Shown here: piece after piece, positions 38,239 through 46,601 of the stretch | Position numbering within the stretch: position 1 is the stretch's first letter | Layout of the letters: every line of letters starts with the position of its first letter | Program-made: the position numbers and the translations under genes | Notes under the pieces: generated by a model | Told to the model about the DNA's origin: nothing | The model's input: the letters and a program-made list of their open reading frames with translations, nothing else | The model's database searches: none | Origin: Alphaproteobacteria bacterium | Lineage (GTDB): Bacteria > Pseudomonadota > Alphaproteobacteria > JAOXRX01 | Assembly: GCA_025800285.1 (NCBI GenBank) | Contig: JAOXRX010000037.1 | Location: forward strand, 144,150 to 208,149 | DNA length: 64,000 bases | Direction: 5' to 3'

Positions 38239-40401
38239 ATGTCAGACTTATTTCATCATTTTATAAACGGAGACTTGCATGACTCTTTTGCATATTTTGG
38301 CATGCATAAACATGGGTCTGATATAGTAATTAGAACCTTTTTCCCCTATGCAAAATCTATAGAGGTCATAAATAAAAACAATAATAACTCTTTAGGTTTT
38401 ATGAATGAGATTTATAATAGTTCAGTGTTTGAGCTTGTTGTGAAAAAAGGGAAAAAAACACCATATTTTTTAAGAATAACAAACTCTCATAATCATGTAA
38501 TGGATTTAGAAGATGCTTATCGTTTCCACTCTATTTTTGGAGAGATTGATAGACATCTTTTAGCAGAAGGCACTCATTTTAAATCATATAATAAAATGGG
38601 AGCACACCCATGTGAGCTAGAGGGGGTTAGAGGAACCTCTTTTGCGGTTTGGGCTCCTAATGCTTGTAGGGTTTCTGTGGTTGGAGATTTTAATGGCTGG
38701 GATGGTAGAAGACACATAATGAGATATCACCCTTCTTGCGGAGTTTGGGAAATGTTTGTGCCTCATGTTTCCGTTGGAGATGTATATAAGTTTGAAATAA
38801 AGAGCAAAGATGGTAAGGTTATGCCTCTAAAGGCGGACCCTTATGCTTTTTGTGCAGAGAAGCCTTCAAAAACAGGCTCTGTTGTTCACGGAGTACAAGA
38901 TTATAAATGGCAAGATAAAAACTGGATGAAATCTAGGGATGCGGATAGGAATTCTCCATTAAATATATATGAGGTTCATGCAGGCTCTTGGAAAAGAAAA
39001 AATGGCGGAGAGTTTCTCTCGTATAAAGAATTAGCAGATGATTTGATTCCTTATGTTAAATGGATGGGATATACTCATATTGAGTTGTTACCAATATCAG
39101 AGTATCCATTTGAAGGCTCTTGGGGATATCAGACTATTGGGTTATATGCTCCAACTGCTAGGTTTGGCAATCCTGAAGATTTTAAATATTTTGTGGATAA
39201 GGCTCATCAAGAAGGTATAGGAGTTATATTAGATTGGGTAGCAGGACATTTTCCTAAAGATGAGCATGGGCTAGGGTGCTTTGATGGAACAAAGATATAT
39301 GAACATGAGGATGCTAGAAAAGGAGAACATAAAGGTTGGGGAACTTTAATATATAATTATTCTCGTAAAGAAGTTAAAAATTATTTGCTGTCTAATGCTC
39401 TGTATTGGATGGATGTTTTTCATATAGATGGGCTAAGAGTTGATGCTGTTGCTTCTATGCTTTATCTGGATTATTGTCGAGAGCCTGGTGAATGGGTTAA
39501 AAATGAATACGGTGGAAGAGAAAATATAGAAGCAGTTTTATTCTTAAAGGAATTAAATGAGGTTATATATAGAAAATTCCCAACAGCAATCACTATTGCT
39601 GAGGAATCTACAGATTGGGGTATGGTATCTCAACCAACTTATGATGGAGGGCTAGGCTTTACATATAAGTGGAATATGGGCTGGATGCATGATACTCTTA
39701 GATACATTAAGCAGGACCCTATTTATAGAAAGCACAATCACAAAGACCTAACATTCGGTATGCTATATTTTTATAATGAGAACTTTGTATTGCCAATTTC
39801 TCATGATGAAGTAGTTCATGGCAAGAGCTCTCTTATCGGTAGAATGCCAGGAGATGAGTGGCAGAGGTTTGCTAATTTAAGAGTTTACTTAACTATGATG
39901 ATGACATATCCTGGTAAAAAGACTCTCTTTATGGGGTGTGAGTTCGGGCAGTACGATGAATGGAAATATAAAGGCAGTCTTGATTGGCATTTAAATCAAT
40001 ATGCTGTTCATAAAGGGGCTCAATTGGTTACAAGAGATTTAAATCATTTATATAAGGATGAGAAGTCATTATATGAGTTTGATAATGATCCTGAAGGATT
40101 TCAGTGGATAGAGTGTAATGATGCAGAAAACTCTGTTCTTTCTTACATAAGAAAATCAGATGAAGAGCATATGGTGGTTGCTTTAAACTTCACTCCAGTA
40201 ATTAGAGAAGAGTATCGTTTAGGAGTTCCTGAATATGGATATTATAAGGAAGTATTTAACTCTGATTCTGAGTATTATTCTGGATCAAATGTTGGTAATT
40301 TAGGTTTAATACATAGTGATAAAATACCGATGCATGGATTTGATTACTCTATAAAAGTCTGCCTCCCACCCCTCGCAGGAATTATATTGAAAAAGAAATA
40401 A
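38239..40401 (+). CDS. glgB: 1,4-alpha-glucan branching enzyme
   Basis: 720 aa, GH13. Motifs HIDGLRVDAVASMLY, ITIAEESTDW and SHDEVVHGK. Confidence 0.95.
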   Translation: MSDLFHHFINGDLHDSFAYFGMHKHGSDIVIRTFFPYAKSIEVINKNNNNSLGFMNEIYNSSVFELVVKKGKKTPYFLRITNSHNHVMDLEDAYRFHSIFGEIDRHLLAEGTHFKSYNKMGAHPCELEGVRGTSFAVWAPNACRVSVVGDFNGWDGRRHIMRYHPSCGVWEMFVPHVSVGDVYKFEIKSKDGKVMPLKADPYAFCAEKPSKTGSVVHGVQDYKWQDKNWMKSRDADRNSPLNIYEVHAGSWKRKNGGEFLSYKELADDLIPYVKWMGYTHIELLPISEYPFEGSWGYQTIGLYAPTARFGNPEDFKYFVDKAHQEGIGVILDWVAGHFPKDEHGLGCFDGTKIYEHEDARKGEHKGWGTLIYNYSRKEVKNYLLSNALYWMDVFHIDGLRVDAVASMLYLDYCREPGEWVKNEYGGRENIEAVLFLKELNEVIYRKFPTAITIAEESTDWGMVSQPTYDGGLGFTYKWNMGWMHDTLRYIKQDPIYRKHNHKDLTFGMLYFYNENFVLPISHDEVVHGKSSLIGRMPGDEWQRFANLRVYLTMMMTYPGKKTLFMGCEFGQYDEWKYKGSLDWHLNQYAVHKGAQLVTRDLNHLYKDEKSLYEFDNDPEGFQWIECNDAENSVLSYIRKSDEEHMVVALNFTPVIREEYRLGVPEYGYYKEVFNSDSEYYSGSNVGNLGLIHSDKIPMHGFDYSIKVCLPPLAGIILKKK

Positions 40402-40500
40402 AAAACTAGCTACCGAAGTAGCTAGCTGTAAATATCGAAATAAATTTCTTATTAACGACTAGACATTTAAATCCAATATGCTATCTATATAATTCATTAA
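40400..40500 (-). ncRNA. tracrRNA candidate (5' end uncertain)
   Basis: Minus strand 40484-40456 (ATAGCATATTGGATTTAAATGTCTAGTCG) is perfectly complementary to nt 5-33 of the minus-sense CRISPR repeat. It is followed by a small hairpin and an intrinsic terminator GCTAGCTAC-TTCG-GTAGCTAG-TTTTTT (40426-40400). Confidence 0.7.
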
Positions 40501-40609
40501 TAATTTAATCGATAAATTAATTATTATATATTTTTAATATAAAGTCAACTTGTTTTTTGTAAATATATATTTTATATTATATTAAAATAAAACATGGAGG
40601 ATAAAGTAT

Positions 40610-43600
40610 ATGAAATATAGATTAGGTTTAGATATGGGTTCAACTTCAATTGGCTGGAGTATTGCTGAACTAAATGAAGATGATATAGCAGTTGATATAA
40701 TTGATACAGGTGTTAGAATATTCCCAGATGGTAGAGATGATAAAAGTAAAGAGTCTCTATGTGTATCAAGGAGAAATGCTAGAGGAGCAAGAAGACTGCA
40801 TAATAGATATAAGCAAAGAAGATCAGACTTAATAAATAAACTTATAGAAATAGGTTTGTTTCCTATGAATATTGAAGATAGAAAGTCTTTAGAAAAACTA
40901 AATCCATATAAGTTGAGGAGCGATTCCGTTAATGAAAAATTAACTAAATATGAACTGGGGAGAGCTTTATTTCATTTATCTCAAAGAAGAGGTTTCAAAT
41001 CTAGTCGAAAAGACGATGCAGAACAAGGAGGAAAGTTAAAAGATGGTTATAAAAAGTTACAAGAGGAAATGTTAGAGCATAATTGCAAAACTTATGGACA
41101 ATATTTATATAAAAAACTTAAAAATGGAGAAAATGCAAGATTAAATGATGCTTATGATGACAGTGGTAACTTTATAGGCAATGCTTCTTTTCCGTTTAGA
41201 GATACATATATAAATGAATTTGATATAATTTGGGATAAACAAGCCGAGTTTTATCCCGATGTTTTAAATTTAGAAAATAAGAATAAAATAAAAGAAACTA
41301 TATTTTTTCAAAGAGCTTTAAAAGAGCAGGAAGAGGGAACTTGCACTCTTGAAAAAGGAGAACCAAGAATTGCAAAAGCTCATCCATTGTTTCAAGAATT
41401 TAGATTATTACAAACAATAAATATTATTAAGTATGCAGAAAAAAATGATACTAATTATAGAAATTTAACACAAGAAGAAAGAGATAAGCTTTTACATATA
41501 TTAAACAATCCTCAAGATTATGATACAACTGCAAAGGGTAGAATTAATTTAGGAAAGATAAAAAAATATTTAAATTTACATAAATATGGCAAGTTCAATT
41601 TAGAAGGTAAAGGATTTAAATATAGCAAAACAGCTGAAGATTCAAAATCAATTAATACAAATTCTACAGTTTTTGCTATATATAATGAAAAATCTAACAC
41701 TGAAAATTTAAAGAAGGAATGGAGTAATATATCTTCAGAACAACAAGAAAAGGCTATTGAAATAATATCAAGACCAGATATAGATAAATATCAAAAATTA
41801 TCCGCAGATGATTATACAAATTTAGTTATAAAAGAATTAATTGCAAAAGTTTCTTTAACAGAAGAATCTGCAAAAGAATTAGCTATGTTGAATTTAGAAG
41901 ATGGTTTTGGTAATTTATCAAAAAAAGCCATAAGAAATATACTACCTTATTTACGAGAAGGTTCGCTCTACAGTGAAGCTTGTGAAAAAGCAGAATATCA
42001 TCATTCTCAAAAAGAATATGAGCATATTGATAAACTTCCATATTATGGAGAAATTCTTTCAGAACATTGTTTGGGAAAAAAATCTCAACCTAAAAACATA
42101 GAAGAAGAATTTGGTAAAATAAACAATGCCACAGTTCATGTTGCTCTTAATCAAATTAGGCATCTAGTAAATGAAATTATATCTTTATATGGAAAACCTT
42201 TTGATATAGCGATTGAATATGGAAGAGATTTATCTGCTGGCTCAAAAGAGCGAAGTAAAATGACAAATGTAAGAGATAAAAATGAGAAAGAAAATGAAAA
42301 AATAAGAAAAGAGTTGATTGACAAAGGTATTTTAACAGATCCTAAAAGATATGACATCCAAAAATATAAAATATGGAAAAATTTAGGAATAGGTAAAGGA
42401 GATAAGGTTTTAGATAGAGAGTGTCCTTTCTCAGGAGAAAAGATATCTCTAACAGAATTGTTTAACGGGAATAAATTTCAAATAGAGCATATATTACCAT
42501 TTTCAATAACATTAGATGATTCTTTAAATAATAAAGTTATAGCTTTAATAACAGCTAATAAGTTTAAAGGCAATAGAACTCCATGGGAAGCTTTTAACGA
42601 ATCCCCTAATGGTTATAATTGGGATGATATTAAAAGAAGAGCAATGAAATTATCTTCTGAACAACAATGGAGATTTAATGAAAATGCTATGAAGAAGTTT
42701 TCTGATAAAGAGGGCCCGATAGCGAGAGCTCTAAATGATACTAGATATATGACTAGACTATTACAAGAATATCTTTTGCCAATTTGTAGGGAAGATGGAA
42801 AGAAGACAGTTTTATCAGTTCCAGGTAAGTTAACTAGTTTAGTTAGGAAGTCTTGGGGCTTAAATGAATATAAAGAAAAAACAAAAGATGTTGGTTATAA
42901 TCCTGAAACTGGAGAAGTTATTGAAGAAAAAAACGAAGATTATAGAGCTTTTCATAATCACCATGCTATGGATGCTATAGTTATTTCTTCTCTATCTAGA
43001 TCTCAATTGCAACAAGTTGTTCCTGAAATGAAAAGGTGTTCTAATGATATTATGAACCATTTTAAAGATGATTTTTATAAATTAAGAGATTCTTTAGTCT
43101 CAAAAGAAGAAAAAAAAGAATTGAAAAAAAGAATTCGTGATTTTAGAGAATGTAAAGAACAAGGAATTATTTCAGAATATATACCTATACCTAAAAAATT
43201 GAATGTATTTAATATAAAAGAAAAAGTGGCTAATATAAATATATCATATAAACCTAAAACTAAAAATCCGTATGATTTAAAATCTACAGTCGGACAATTA
43301 CATGAAGACACTGCTTATGGGATAATTGGATTCTTAGATGATAAATCGTTAAAAGCAAAATTTCATGTTCATAAAGAAGATAAAAATAAAAAAGTAGATG
43401 CTTTAAAAGATAACAGTATTGTTAGTTATATACCAATGTTTCATACTCAAGAAGATAAAAAAGCTTATTATAATGCTTATAAAGAATGGTTTATTAATGA
43501 TGGTAAAGCAAAATTAATGAATGCAAAAACAAAAGAAGAAAAAGCTCTTAAAAAAGAACAATCTGAAAAAGAATTGCAAACAGTTCTCGCTTTAAGAGAA

Positions 43601-44128
43601 GCTTCTTTAAAATCTTTTAAATGGTTTGTTGGAGGAGGAAATTTCTGTGCGGAGATATATGAAATTAATCCTCAAAACAAACATAAAGGAGTTGCAATGA
43701 AAAATGCTGGAAAATGGGAAGGAGAAATCATTTCTAATTATAATGCAACAGTTAGAGCACATAATAATGAACCTATAAGCTACTTACATTATAAATATCC
43801 TAATGCTAAAAAGATTATGACTTTAAAAATGAATGACATGGTCATGGCAACATTTAATAAAGAACAAGCTTTCGATGATAAATTCCCTAAAGGTATTCAA
43901 AATTATGTTAGAGAGAAATTTAATAAAGAGAAAAATTTAGAAAATATTGCTATTTTGTTTAGGGTTAAAAAGATTAATTCAGCTGGAACATTATTTTTAA
44001 GACCTCATAATATTGCAAAAGAGGAAGCTGATAAAAAATGCTGGATAGCTTCTATCTCTGGTATGGGAAATTGCAATGCTAAAAAAGTTTTTGTTTCTTC
44101 AACAGGAAAAATTAAAGATGTTAAATAA
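40610..44128 (+). CDS. cas9: Cas9 endonuclease, type II-C
   Basis: 1172 aa. RuvC-I GLDMGSTSIGWS, Arg-rich bridge helix RRNARGARRLHNRYKQRR, RuvC-II IAIEYGRD, HNH QIEHILPFSITLDDSLNNKVIALITANKFKGNRTPWEAF, RuvC-III HNHHAMDAIVIS. RBS GGAGGA. Confidence 0.95.
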   Translation: MKYRLGLDMGSTSIGWSIAELNEDDIAVDIIDTGVRIFPDGRDDKSKESLCVSRRNARGARRLHNRYKQRRSDLINKLIEIGLFPMNIEDRKSLEKLNPYKLRSDSVNEKLTKYELGRALFHLSQRRGFKSSRKDDAEQGGKLKDGYKKLQEEMLEHNCKTYGQYLYKKLKNGENARLNDAYDDSGNFIGNASFPFRDTYINEFDIIWDKQAEFYPDVLNLENKNKIKETIFFQRALKEQEEGTCTLEKGEPRIAKAHPLFQEFRLLQTINIIKYAEKNDTNYRNLTQEERDKLLHILNNPQDYDTTAKGRINLGKIKKYLNLHKYGKFNLEGKGFKYSKTAEDSKSINTNSTVFAIYNEKSNTENLKKEWSNISSEQQEKAIEIISRPDIDKYQKLSADDYTNLVIKELIAKVSLTEESAKELAMLNLEDGFGNLSKKAIRNILPYLREGSLYSEACEKAEYHHSQKEYEHIDKLPYYGEILSEHCLGKKSQPKNIEEEFGKINNATVHVALNQIRHLVNEIISLYGKPFDIAIEYGRDLSAGSKERSKMTNVRDKNEKENEKIRKELIDKGILTDPKRYDIQKYKIWKNLGIGKGDKVLDRECPFSGEKISLTELFNGNKFQIEHILPFSITLDDSLNNKVIALITANKFKGNRTPWEAFNESPNGYNWDDIKRRAMKLSSEQQWRFNENAMKKFSDKEGPIARALNDTRYMTRLLQEYLLPICREDGKKTVLSVPGKLTSLVRKSWGLNEYKEKTKDVGYNPETGEVIEEKNEDYRAFHNHHAMDAIVISSLSRSQLQQVVPEMKRCSNDIMNHFKDDFYKLRDSLVSKEEKKELKKRIRDFRECKEQGIISEYIPIPKKLNVFNIKEKVANINISYKPKTKNPYDLKSTVGQLHEDTAYGIIGFLDDKSLKAKFHVHKEDKNKKVDALKDNSIVSYIPMFHTQEDKKAYYNAYKEWFINDGKAKLMNAKTKEEKALKKEQSEKELQTVLALREASLKSFKWFVGGGNFCAEIYEINPQNKHKGVAMKNAGKWEGEIISNYNATVRAHNNEPISYLHYKYPNAKKIMTLKMNDMVMATFNKEQAFDDKFPKGIQNYVREKFNKEKNLENIAILFRVKKINSAGTLFLRPHNIAKEEADKKCWIASISGMGNCNAKKVFVSSTGKIKDVK

Positions 44129-45020
44129 TATCATTGAAATTTCTACGGATAATAAAAAGCTTTCTGTTTATAGGGGTTTTTTAAGAATTGAAGGAAATTC
44201 GGATGTTCTAAAAGATATAACTTTTGATGCAATTAACTCCCTTATAATAACAGCTCGAGGAGTCATTTATACAAATAATTTATTGCAACAGCTGTGCGAA
44301 AGAGGAATACCTTTAGTAATTTTAGGTAAAAATTTTCATCCTATAGGGACATTATTATCTTGTATTGGTAATTATAAACAAACTGAAGTTCAGTTGAAGC
44401 AAATTGAAAATAAAAAACCATTACAAAAACGAATATGGCAATTAATAATTCAAGAAAAGATAAAAAATCAATCAAGAGTTTTAGACAGTTGGAATAAAAA
44501 AAATGAATTAAAATGTTTACATAAAAAAGTTCTTTCAGGAGATTCTACAAATATAGAGGCTTATGGGGCTAGGTTATATTTCAAATCTCTTTATGGAGAA
44601 GATTTTATTCGTAATAAAGACATGGAGGGGATTAATTCTTTTCTAAATTATGGTTATGCTATTATAAGAGCGGCTCTTGCAAGATATGTAGTTGCTTCAG
44701 GGTTAAATCCATCTTTTGGAGTAGAGCATCATAATAAGTTAAATCCATTTTGTTTAGTTGATGATTTAATTGAACCTTTTCGCCCAATAGTTGATAATAC
44801 CGTATATGCAATTTTTCAAGAGAATAATGTTTCAGAATTAACTACAGAATATAAAGCTAAACTATCAAATTTATTAACAGAAGAATTTTATAACGGAGAA
44901 GGATTTTCTCCACTATATGTTATATTGCAACAAATAGTTCGAGATTTAGTGAAAATATATGAAAGCAAGAATGTTAATTTTAACTTTAATTCTCATTTAA
45001 TAAAAGAAGATTTATTTTAA
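44118..45020 (+). CDS. cas1: Cas1 integrase
   Basis: Start set at MLNNIIEIS, which overlaps the cas9 stop by 11 nt; the track ORF starts at 44076. Conserved NSFLNYGYAIIRAALARYVVASGLNPSFGVEHH. Confidence 0.9.
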   Translation: MLNNIIEISTDNKKLSVYRGFLRIEGNSDVLKDITFDAINSLIITARGVIYTNNLLQQLCERGIPLVILGKNFHPIGTLLSCIGNYKQTEVQLKQIENKKPLQKRIWQLIIQEKIKNQSRVLDSWNKKNELKCLHKKVLSGDSTNIEAYGARLYFKSLYGEDFIRNKDMEGINSFLNYGYAIIRAALARYVVASGLNPSFGVEHHNKLNPFCLVDDLIEPFRPIVDNTVYAIFQENNVSELTTEYKAKLSNLLTEEFYNGEGFSPLYVILQQIVRDLVKIYESKNVNFNFNSHLIKEDLF

Positions 45021-45365
45021 ATGAAAGAAGAAAAAAGATATTTAAATGGGAGGAAACTTATGTGGATGATGGTTATGTTTGATTTACCTACAGATACATC
45101 TGTTCAAAGAAAGTCTGCAAGTAAATTTAGGAAGTTTTTGTTAGATACAGGTTTTGAAATGGTGCAGTTTTCTGTCTATACTCAATTTACAGGAACATGG
45201 GAGTCTTCTCAAAAATATGTTAATAACATCAAAGAAAATACTCCTAAATATGGAGATATAAATATATTATTTTTTACAGATAAACAGTTTGAAAATATTA
45301 TCCATATAGAAAATTTAAAAGAAGAAAAATTAAGAGAAAAGCCTAATCAGTTCGAACTTTTTTAA
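45021..45365 (+). CDS. cas2: Cas2
   Basis: 114 aa. The ATG abuts the cas1 stop. First beta-strand WMMVMFDLPT, with size and position typical of type II Cas2. Confidence 0.85.
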   Translation: MKEEKRYLNGRKLMWMMVMFDLPTDTSVQRKSASKFRKFLLDTGFEMVQFSVYTQFTGTWESSQKYVNNIKENTPKYGDINILFFTDKQFENIIHIENLKEEKLREKPNQFELF

Positions 45366-45475
45366 GAAAATGAAAAACGAATCGATAAAAAAATAATTAT
45401 ATTTTCAAAAAAAATGAAAAAAACATATGAAAAAACATGCATAAAAAGCCATTTTTTTTATAGGTTAATATAAAG

Positions 45476-45503
45476 AAAAAGCCCCCACCCAGAGGGCTTT
45501 TCG
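45476..45503. terminator. bidirectional intrinsic terminator between cas2 and the first repeat
   Basis: AAAAGCCC-CCACCCAGA-GGGCTTTT, with T-runs on both strands. It ends 7 nt before repeat 1. Confidence 0.6.
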
Positions 45504-45510
45504 ACTATCT

Positions 45511-46601
45511 ATTATAGCATATTGGATTTAAATGTCTAGTCGCAACGGAAATGCCGTAGATATATCAACAAGCACAATTATAGCATATTGGATTTAAATG
45601 TCTAGTCGCAACAAATCGTCATAAGGCAACATTATTTGTTTTATTATAGCATATTGGATTTAAATGTCTAGTCGCAACTATTGGGGATGAAATATGGGAT
45701 GTTAGATTATTATAGCATATTGGATTTAAATGTCTAGTCGCAACTTTATCTCCTTTTCCTTTTGTTTTTTTTATATTATAGCATATTGGATTTAAATGTC
45801 TAGTCGCAACAAGAAGAACTTAAACAAAGAATCCTTGAGGATTATAGCATATTGGATTTAAATGTCTAGTCGCAACTTTCCAATCACATAAGAACGAGTC
45901 CTCAACATTATAGCATATTGGATTTAAATGTCTAGTCGCAACGAGACTCTCCTACATCTTGATAGCCTCCTAATTATAGCATATTGGATTTAAATGTCTA
46001 GTCGCAACTATATGAACGGCTTTTGCTTTTGTTTTAATATTATAGCATATTGGATTTAAATGTCTAGTCGCAACTAGCTGGACTGATGAGTTTAAACAGA
46101 TGTTATTATAGCATATTGGATTTAAATGTCTAGTCGCAACCCTAATCAAACAGTTAAGTTTTTGCATAGAATTATAGCATATTGGATTTAAATGTCTAGT
46201 CGCAACTTTACTCTCCTTTTCCTTGAGTATTGTTTTATTATAGCATATTGGATTTAAATGTCTAGTCGCAACCTATTATGTACTCATCCATCTCTTTTGT
46301 AGATTATAGCATATTGGATTTAAATGTCTAGTCGCAACTTATCTTTGCCTTTCTGCTCCTGCAATAAGATTATAGCATATTGGATTTAAATGTCTAGTCG
46401 CAACATGTAAATTAGGTTTTCATAAGTGGGAATAATTATAGCATATTGGATTTAAATGTCTAGTCGCAACTAACAGTAGGTGATAGCATTTCGTTTTTTA
46501 TTATAGCATATTGGATTTAAATGTCTAGTCGCAACTTGTTGAAGCCAAATAGTATTGTCTTCGAGATTATAGCATATTGGATTTAAATGTCTAGTCGTAA
46601 T
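45511..46601 (-). CRISPR. CRISPR array: 17 repeats of 36 nt and 16 spacers (15 of 30 nt, one of 29 nt)
   Basis: Plus-strand repeat ATTATAGCATATTGGATTTAAATGTCTAGTCGCAAC starts at 45511, 45577, 45643, 45709, 45775, 45841, 45907, 45973, 46039, 46105, 46171, 46237, 46303, 46369, 46435, 46500 and 46566. The last copy is degenerate (...GTCGTAAT). Minus-strand sense (GTTGCGAC...TATAAT) is inferred from tracrRNA complementarity and the II-C repeat convention. Confidence 0.97.

What the first reader, a model, noticed from the sequence alone, without database searches (positions are those of the whole stretch)
45511..46601. Every CRISPR repeat ends in a perfect extended -10 box (TGCTATAAT), suggesting one promoter per spacer
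Read on the minus strand the repeat is GTTGCGACTAGACATTTAAATCCAATATGCTATAAT. Its last 9 nt are TG-n-TATAAT, a consensus extended -10 element, sitting directly upstream of each spacer. In Neisseria meningitidis and Campylobacter jejuni II-C systems an equivalent repeat-terminal box (TGCTACAAT-like) drives independent transcription of each crRNA. There the 5' ends fall inside the spacers and RNase III processing is dispensable. Here the box is closer to consensus and is intact in all 17 copies. In the degenerate terminal repeat both substitutions fall at the opposite end (ATTACGAC...), which is outside the tracrRNA duplex. I predict transcription starts about 6-8 nt into each spacer, giving guides of roughly 23-24 nt from 30-nt spacers.
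Basis: partly seen in the sequence, partly recalled or inferred. Interest (0 to 1): 0.7.

Follow-up and report, generated by a model that had tools for sequence, protein, structure and literature searches.

The report
CRISPR repeats that each carry a promoter
This is a genuine type II-C CRISPR-Cas9 locus from an uncultured gut-type alphaproteobacterium, and each repeat ends in a near-perfect promoter pointing at the next spacer, a crRNA production mode already described in Neisseria and Campylobacter, so it is a sound but ordinary example.

Summary
Positions 45511-46601 hold 17 repeats of 36 nt. Sixteen are identical and one, the cas-distal repeat, is degenerate. Read on the minus strand, all 17 end in TGCTATAAT.

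The locus is cas9-cas1-cas2-array, which is the type II-C layout. The tracrRNA lies upstream of cas9 on the minus strand, with an anti-repeat, a nexus hairpin and a covarying terminator.

Each repeat also carries a -35-like TAGACA 16 nt upstream of the -10 box (11 of 12 matches plus TG). Only 6 other sites in the window score as high.

Across 54 distinct repeats from related loci, the last hexamer is conserved as T98 A91 n A85 A78 T98. That matches the conservation pattern of a sigma-70 -10 box. The motif is lost in the anti-repeat copy. It is kept in decaying oldest repeats, some of which survive only as their last 11-22 nt.

Terminators bracket the array, and there is no room for an external promoter.

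This is a new member of a known kind. No transcript data exist for this locus.

The parts
45511..46601 (-). CRISPR array with 17 repeats of 36 nt and 16 spacers (15 of 30 nt, 1 of 29 nt). crRNA sense is the minus strand, convergent with the cas operon.
   Evidence: strand from the tracrRNA
46500..46535 (-). Representative repeat with its embedded promoter: -35-like TAGACA at 46527-46522, a 16-nt spacer, TG at 46508-46507 and -10 TATAAT at 46505-46500. The same layout is present in all 17 repeats.
   Evidence: 11 of 12 matches plus TG in every repeat; only 6 other sites this good in the window
46566..46601 (-). Oldest, cas-distal 'extra' repeat. It is degenerate at positions 1 and 4 (ATTACGAC...) and keeps both promoter elements. 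It would serve only as the promoter for the oldest spacer.
   Evidence: general pattern described in PMC12080349
46621..46643 (-). Intrinsic terminator of rpsI. The stem ends 19 nt upstream of the first repeat, so it insulates the array from the ribosomal-protein operon and leaves no room for an external array promoter.
45511..45546 (-). Last, cas-proximal repeat, which abuts the leader. It is the presumed site of new spacer insertion.
   Evidence: acquisition polarity from PMC12080349 and PMC4607530, inferred here from the degenerate repeat lying at the other end
45476..45502 (-). GC-rich hairpin followed by a T-run, starting 9 nt after the last repeat (GAAAAGCCCTCTGGGTGGGGGCTTTTTCTTT). It is a terminator for array transcripts and for the last repeat's promoter, and it protects cas2 from antisense transcription.
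   Evidence: an equivalent hairpin is present in 55 of 63 related arrays
45366..45510 (.). AT-rich cas2-array intergenic region, the 'leader' in the integration sense.
40610..44128 (+). cas9, 1172 aa, with HNH and RuvC domains and conserved catalytic residues. The nearest solved structures are 1082-1095-aa Cas9 chains (entries 6JDQ, 6KC8), which from memory are Neisseria meningitidis Cas9.
44076..45020 (+). cas1 (matches the type II model cas1_NMENI).
45021..45365 (+). cas2.
40398..40513 (-). Predicted tracrRNA: anti-repeat 40484-40455 (30 bp with repeat positions 4-33), nexus hairpin 40448-40437, terminator hairpin 40427-40404 and U-run 40403-40398. The 5' end is an estimate.
40520..40548 (-). 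Predicted tracrRNA promoter, TTGACT-N17-AATAAT. The -35 lies within a family-conserved AAAAACAAGTTGAC motif.

Best explanation
This is a type II-C CRISPR-Cas9 locus in which every 36-nt repeat doubles as a sigma-70 promoter on the minus strand. The promoter is TAGACA, a 16-nt spacer, TG, one base, then TATAAT.

RNA polymerase would start about 7 nt downstream of the TATAAT, inside the adjacent spacer. That gives a nested set of primary transcripts, each beginning with roughly 23-24 nt of one spacer followed by the next repeat.

The minus-strand tracrRNA pairs with repeat positions 4-33. Cas9 binds this duplex, and the 30-bp helix is a likely RNase III substrate that would define the crRNA 3' end.

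The rpsI terminator directly upstream keeps outside transcription from producing a guide-less crRNA from the first repeat. A hairpin terminator directly after the last repeat ends all array transcripts before they run antisense into cas2.

Shown here: the anatomy, the strand, the conservation pattern and the flanking terminators. Inferred: promoter activity in vivo, the exact start site, guide length and the role of RNase III.
For: (1) Layout: glgB, tracrRNA, cas9-cas1-cas2, array, rpsI, with no csn2 or cas4.

(2) Strand: the tracrRNA has its anti-repeat, nexus and terminator only on the minus strand. The arrangement is conserved in about 55 related loci, and 14 of 20 predicted pairs show compensatory changes.

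(3) Promoter quality: every repeat scores 11 of 12 matches plus TG. Only 6 other sites in the rest of the window score as high. One of them is the likely rplM-rpsI promoter, TTGACA-N17-TATATT. The family's tracrRNA promoters also use TTGAC(A/T). The host therefore reads canonical promoters.

(4) Comparative: 54 distinct repeats from related loci all have the same orientation relative to cas9. Positions 31-36 are conserved as T98% A91% n41% A85% A78% T98%. 48 of 54 carry TAnnnT and 29 of 54 also carry TG. 42 of 54 match TTGACA in at least 5 of 6 positions at 9-14. The mean best promoter score is 9.9 of 12 on the crRNA strand against 6.2 of 12 on the opposite strand.

(5) Not a pairing constraint: in several relatives the anti-repeat pairing stops at repeat position 26-31. 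The anti-repeat copy keeps TAnnnT in only 8 of 51 cases.

(6) Oldest repeats: across 45 arrays there are 60 substitutions at positions 1-8 against 3 at positions 29-36. In 7 arrays the terminal remnant keeps only its last 11-22 nt, exactly one 30-nt spacer upstream of the next repeat.

(7) Insulation: the terminator stem ends 19 nt upstream of the array, and a second terminator starts 9 nt after it. A hairpin after the last repeat is present in 55 of 63 relatives, with a median z-score of -5.4.

(8) Precedent: dRNA-seq found start sites inside spacers driven by the repeat -10 box in C. jejuni (PMC3656092). The N. meningitidis case is reviewed in PMC5965381. A gnTAnaaT motif at the repeat 3' end was reported from a survey that included 58 II-C species (PMC4607530). 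[quoted passage not shown]
Against: There are no transcript data for this organism.

The 17 copies are not independent, and the related loci share ancestry, so the counts overstate the number of independent events.

The repeat's 3' end abuts the leader. Its conservation could partly reflect recognition by the Cas1-Cas2 integrase.

The -35-like block lies inside the part of the repeat that pairs with the tracrRNA and is bound by Cas9. Its conservation is therefore confounded.

The 16-nt spacer is one base shorter than optimal.

In the decaying first repeats the stretch between the two hexamers is also little mutated. The asymmetry may therefore reflect targeted loss of the 5' end, as proposed in PMC12080349, more than retention of the promoter. 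Truncation from the outside would also leave 3' remnants.

Spacers show no purine bias at positions 6-8. That result is uninformative rather than contrary.
Confidence: 0.8

Rival explanations
1. The array is made as one long precursor from outside, for example by read-through of the highly expressed rplM-rpsI operon, and is then cut by RNase III with the tracrRNA. On this view the promoter-like sequence in the repeat is incidental.
For: rpsI lies directly upstream on the same strand. The 30-bp perfect repeat:anti-repeat duplex is a good RNase III substrate. Terminators can leak.
Against: A strong terminator sits between rpsI and the array, with its stem ending 19 nt before the first repeat. 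Incidental sequence would not show -10-type conservation across 54 diverged repeats, nor lose it specifically in the anti-repeat copy. In the characterised II-C systems the repeat promoters are active (PMC3656092, PMC5965381). Read-through and internal initiation could also coexist.
Confidence: 0.07
2. The conserved 3'-terminal motif is kept mainly because Cas1-Cas2 recognise the leader-proximal end of the repeat during spacer integration. Its resemblance to a promoter is secondary.
For: In this orientation the TATAAT end of the last repeat abuts the leader, where II-C systems insert new spacers (PMC12080349). In other type II systems, repeat ends are known integrase determinants (general knowledge).
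Against: The position-by-position pattern, with strong T1, A2 and T6 and a free third position, is that of a -10 hexamer. TG sits at the correct offset in 29 of 54 repeats. The motif is retained in the oldest repeat and in 11-22-nt remnants at the end of the array where no integration takes place. The two functions are not mutually exclusive.
Confidence: 0.1
3. The array is transcribed on the plus strand as an extension of the cas9-cas1-cas2 operon, as in type II-A systems.
For: The array lies downstream of cas2 on the same DNA. The degenerate repeat is then at the far end, which is the usual position in leader-driven arrays.
Against: A plus-strand crRNA would need a plus-strand tracrRNA. On that strand the anti-repeat is followed by AT-rich sequence with no terminator. 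On the minus strand it is followed by a nexus and a covarying terminator. A hairpin separates cas2 from the array. Plus-strand promoter scores within repeats are low, 6.2 of 12 on average.
Confidence: 0.02

Closest known systems
Neisseria meningitidis type II-C CRISPR-Cas9 (Zhang et al. 2013, Mol Cell, PMID 23706818; paper not held here, read through the review PMC5965381)
   Same: A cas9-cas1-cas2 operon with a convergent array of 36-nt repeats. Each repeat ends in an extended -10 box (TGCTACAAT there, TGCTATAAT here). crRNAs start inside spacers. The closest solved Cas9 structures to this protein are, from memory, the N. meningitidis enzymes.
   Different: The Cas9 matches the solved chains only over its first ~758 residues (E about 1e-61). 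Here the tracrRNA is upstream of cas9 and divergent from it. The repeat here also carries a -35-like TAGACA/TTGACA. My recollection, not checked, is that the Neisseria repeat has no such element.
Campylobacter jejuni minimal type II-C system (Dugar et al. 2013, PMC3656092)
   Same: A -10 box in the 3' part of each repeat, with dRNA-seq start sites inside each spacer. The genome has a similarly low G+C content. RNase III together with the tracrRNA trims the 3' end.
   Different: The C. jejuni repeat (GTTTTAGTCCCTTTTTAAATTTCTTTATGGTAAAAT, quoted in PMC4607530) has no -35-like hexamer and a weaker -10 (GGTAAAAT). Its tracrRNA lies downstream of the array (PMC4607530).
Surveys of type II-C arrays (Pearson et al. 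2015, PMC4607530; Feussner et al. 2025, PMC12080349)
   Same: These surveys report a gnTAnaaT motif at the repeat 3' end, an array antisense to the cas genes, a degenerate repeat at the transcription-proximal end mutated mostly in its first 15 nt, and a Rho-independent terminator upstream of some arrays. All of these features are present here.
   Different: These uncultured gut and rumen alphaproteobacterial loci may not have been in those data sets. The hairpin just after the newest repeat and the -35-like element are not discussed in the parts of those papers that I read.

Membership tests
Type II-C CRISPR-Cas | The cas operon consists of cas9, cas1 and cas2 only, with no csn2 or cas4. | tested here: met
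   ORFs 40610-44128, 44076-45020 and 45021-45365 match Cas9, Cas1 (cas1_NMENI) and Cas2. The flanking genes are glgB and rpsI.
Type II-C CRISPR-Cas | A tracrRNA whose anti-repeat is complementary to the repeat, followed by structured 3' hairpins. | tested here: met
   A 30-bp duplex with repeat positions 4-33, plus a nexus and a terminator. Covariation in 17 relatives. Rfam has no matching family.
Type II-C CRISPR-Cas | The Cas9 belongs to the II-C clade. | tested here: inconclusive
   The best solved-structure matches are 1082-1095-aa Cas9 chains such as 6JDQ and 6KC8 (E about 1e-61). I recall these as Nme1/Nme2 Cas9, but the table does not name the organism. No phylogeny was built.
Type II-C CRISPR-Cas | [quoted passage not shown] | tested here: met
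   Strand inferred from the tracrRNA. The degenerate repeat at 46566-46601 is first in crRNA sense. This matches PMC4607530.
Repeat-embedded crRNA promoters (Neisseria/Campylobacter mode of crRNA biogenesis) | A sigma-70 -10 box (gnTAnaaT) at the 3' end of every repeat, facing the spacer. | tested here: met
   TGCTATAAT in 17 of 17 repeats. TAnnnT in 48 of 54 related distinct repeats.
Repeat-embedded crRNA promoters (Neisseria/Campylobacter mode of crRNA biogenesis) | Primary (5'-triphosphate) crRNA 5' ends inside spacers. | not testable with these tools
   This needs dRNA-seq or 5' RACE. No transcript data are available.
Repeat-embedded crRNA promoters (Neisseria/Campylobacter mode of crRNA biogenesis) | A single repeat drives transcription in a reporter or in vitro, and does so in a -10-dependent way. 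| not testable with these tools
   Experimental. Only the consensus score is available.
Repeat-embedded crRNA promoters (Neisseria/Campylobacter mode of crRNA biogenesis) | Interference is independent of RNase III processing. | not testable with these tools
   Experimental. The 30-bp duplex suggests that processing does occur, but says nothing about whether it is required.

The most novel reading that the evidence does not exclude
In this large, uncultured Cas9 clade (gut and rumen Alphaproteobacteria, reaching to Cloacimonadota), the repeat may have evolved into a complete -35 / extended -10 sigma-70 promoter, not merely a -10 box. Selection would then keep these promoter modules even in the decaying oldest repeat: remnants break just upstream of the -35 hexamer, or keep only the extended -10. 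The system would further depend on a conserved hairpin terminator immediately after the newest repeat to stop the last, spacer-less promoter from firing antisense into the cas operon.
Probability: 0.4. Interest if true: 0.4.

Novelty: new member of a known kind. Interest (0 to 1): 0.25.

Why it matters
The finding adds a well-resolved example, with about 60 relatives, of promoter-in-repeat crRNA production in a lineage known only from metagenomes. It also supplies comparative support for a model that has been tested experimentally in only a few species.

On the practical side, it gives the correct crRNA strand, a tracrRNA sequence and a likely guide length of about 24 nt for a Cas9 family of ~1130-1215 aa that no one has characterised.

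It does not change how type II-C systems are understood.

Tried and rejected
Protospacer and PAM search as an independent test of crRNA strand: the whole array against the phage collection gave only chance-level hits. Four 24-nt spacer cores against IMG/VR gave nothing.

Rfam scan for a tracrRNA family: only one sub-threshold, unrelated hit.

RNAalifold on the hairpin after the last repeat: it returned no consensus because the alignment was out of register. I replaced it with per-sequence folding against shuffles.

Purine bias at spacer positions 6-8 as a footprint of the start site: none among 671 spacers. This is uninformative.

The primary Neisseria paper (PMC3694421) is not held. I relied on reviews and later papers instead.

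A full-text search for TTGACA together with CRISPR repeat terms found no paper discussing a -35 element in II-C repeats. This is weak negative evidence only.

I considered and rejected plus-strand transcription and an external leader promoter; see the rival explanations.

Full report
**What is there.**
Window 45511-46601 is a CRISPR array of 17 repeats of 36 nt. Sixteen are identical. The one at 46566-46601 differs at two positions. No shuffle of the window produced any match. Fifteen spacers are 30 nt and one is 29 nt.

All 17 copies end in TGCTATAAT. These copies are duplicates of one sequence, so 'intact in all 17' is not independent evidence. The motif is rare per position: 10 other occurrences on both strands of the window, with 7.8 expected by chance.

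**Locus context.**
Upstream on the plus strand lie cas9 (40610-44128, 1172 aa, with HNH, RuvC and Cas9 alpha-helical lobe domains), cas1 (a cas1_NMENI match) and cas2. glgB is on one flank. rpsI-rplM is on the other flank, on the minus strand. There is no csn2 or cas4. This is the type II-C layout.

The best solved-structure matches are 1082-1095-aa Cas9 chains such as 6JDQ and 6KC8. From memory these are the Neisseria meningitidis enzymes.

The nearest database relatives are only 59% identical. They come from gut and rumen MAGs labelled Alphaproteobacteria.

**Which strand makes the crRNAs.**
A 29-nt exact copy of repeat positions 5-33 sits at 40456-40484, between glgB and cas9.

On the minus strand this anti-repeat is followed by GUUAAUAAG, a small nexus hairpin (40448-40437), a 10-bp hairpin with a UUCG loop (40427-40404) and a U-run. 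On the plus strand it is followed only by AT-rich sequence.

I fetched 80 related loci and found arrays in 63 of them. Every one lies downstream of cas9-cas1-cas2 in the same orientation. In about 55 of them the anti-repeat lies 110-150 nt upstream of cas9, in the same sense.

An alignment of 17 tracrRNAs gives the same nexus and terminator. Fourteen of 20 predicted pairs show compensatory changes.

The tracrRNA is therefore a minus-strand RNA, and functional crRNAs must be minus-strand too.

**Promoter anatomy.**
The consensus scan finds TAGACA-N16-TATAAT preceded by TG in every repeat, which is 11 of 12 matches.

In the remaining ~63 kb, on both strands, only 6 sites reach 11 of 12 matches, and only 2 of those have TG as well. 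One of the six, TTGACA-N17-TATATT, sits 67 nt upstream of rplM and is presumably the ribosomal-protein operon promoter.

The tracrRNA promoters of the close family share a conserved AAAAACAAGTTGAC(A/T) followed about 17 nt later by a -10-like hexamer.

The host thus appears to use canonical -35/-10 promoters. The repeat scores as well as its best housekeeping candidate.

**Comparative test.**
The 63 arrays give 54 distinct 36-nt repeats. At positions 31-36 the conservation is T 98%, A 91%, variable (41%), A 85%, A 78%, T 98%. These are the positions that matter most in a sigma-70 -10 hexamer, and the third position is free.

- 48 of 54 repeats have TAnnnT.
- 29 of 54 also have TG at positions 28-29.
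- 42 of 54 match TTGACA in at least 5 of 6 positions at 9-14, always 16 nt from the -10 hexamer.
- The best promoter score inside the repeat averages 9.9 of 12 on the crRNA strand and 6.2 of 12 on the other strand.

tracrRNA pairing does not explain the terminal hexamer. In several relatives pairing stops at repeat position 26-31. The anti-repeat copy keeps TAnnnT in only 8 of 51 cases. In the window it reads TATCTA.

**The oldest end of the array.**
In 45 arrays whose cas-distal end is complete, the first repeat carries 60 substitutions at positions 1-8 and 3 at positions 29-36. The other 758 repeats are almost unmutated.

In seven arrays (L005, L012, L031, L032, L049, L057, L058) a further remnant lies exactly one 30-nt spacer upstream. 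It keeps only its last 11-22 nt, that is, the extended -10 region.

I do not treat it as proof, for three reasons:
- The stretch between the two hexamers is also little mutated.
- Truncation from the outside would also leave 3' remnants.
- Feussner et al. attribute the 5' mutations to suppression of the extraneous crRNA (PMC12080349).

In the window, the two substitutions hit position 1, which is outside the predicted duplex, and position 4, its terminal G.U pair, which becomes A-U. The duplex energy is unchanged (-47.5 versus -47.2 kcal/mol). The more relevant point is that this part of the first repeat belongs to no crRNA.

**Insulation.**
On the minus strand the stem of the rpsI terminator (46643-46621) ends 19 nt before the first repeat. 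There is no room for an external array promoter.

Nine nucleotides after the last repeat comes a GC-rich hairpin with a T-run (45502-45476). An equivalent strong hairpin starts 1-14 nt after the last repeat in 55 of 63 relatives. The median z-score is -5.4 against shuffles. The sequences differ between loci. 27 of 63 have a T-rich tail.

The array is thus closed off on both sides. Transcription arising inside it is stopped before cas2.

**Comparison with what is known.**
- dRNA-seq in C. jejuni showed start sites inside each spacer, driven by a -10 box in the 3' part of the upstream repeat (PMC3656092).
- The same was shown for N. meningitidis, where RNase III is dispensable (Zhang et al. 2013, as reviewed in PMC5965381; the primary paper was not available).
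- Pearson et al., in a survey that included 58 II-C species, reported a gnTAnaaT motif at the repeat 3' end, convergent antisense arrays and a degenerate transcription-proximal repeat (PMC4607530).
- Feussner et al. analysed more than 650 II-C systems on the premise that each repeat has its own promoter. They described first-repeat mutations concentrated in the first 15 nt, and upstream terminators (PMC12080349).

Every one of these features is present here. The finding is therefore a correct recognition of a known mechanism in a new lineage.

Two features may go slightly beyond the literature I could read: the near-consensus -35 block inside the repeat, and the conserved hairpin right after the newest repeat. 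The -35 block overlaps the part of the repeat bound by the tracrRNA and Cas9, so its conservation cannot be credited to promoter function without an experiment.

**What stays untested.**
Promoter activity, the exact start site and the guide length are untested. Whether RNase III is needed is also untested.

Protospacer searches, intended to confirm the strand through the PAM side, found nothing.

**Verdict.**
This is a new member of a known kind, of low to moderate interest.

Noticed in passing
window 45469-45509 (minus strand); also L003-L080, the ~50 nt between cas2 and the array: A strong hairpin of 10-21 bp starts 1-14 nt after the last (newest) repeat in 55 of 63 related II-C arrays (median z-score -5.4). 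Its sequence differs between loci, and it often has an A-run before and a T-run after. It is probably a bidirectional terminator between the convergent cas operon and array. It also sits at the leader-repeat junction where spacers are inserted. The II-C survey I read examined only the other end of the array.
   Followed up: partly
L005, L012, L031, L032, L049, L057, L058: one spacer length beyond the first full repeat on the cas-distal side: Remnant 'repeats' that keep only their last 11-22 nt (the extended -10 region), spaced exactly 30 nt from the next repeat. In other loci (L003, L009, L040, L041, L047, L065) the first repeat is replaced only at positions 1-8, with the break falling just before the TTGACA block.
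   Followed up: partly
window 40455-40493 (plus strand): The anti-repeat is a copy of the repeat facing cas9, but its -10 hexamer is broken (TATCTA instead of TATAAT). Only 8 of 51 relatives keep TAnnnT at this site. A different promoter-like site, TTTAAA-N16-TATAAT (40466-40493), points toward cas9. Whether it is the cas9 promoter was not examined.
   Followed up: partly
window 40543-40560 (minus strand) and the equivalent region of L003-L023: A 14-nt motif, AAAAACAAGTTGAC, is nearly invariant upstream of the tracrRNA in the close family, while the -10 region varies. It lies in the divergent tracrRNA/cas9 control region and could also be a regulator binding site.
   Followed up: no
L057 4682-5301: One related contig carries a second, unrelated array upstream of cas9: a 37-nt repeat, ATTAAAGCAGCCCCGAATTTAGAAGGGGACTAAAACT, in 10 copies. 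This suggests another CRISPR type lies next to the II-C locus.
   Followed up: no
window 44076-44128: The listed cas1 ORF overlaps the end of cas9 by 53 nt. The true cas1 start is probably a later codon.
   Followed up: no
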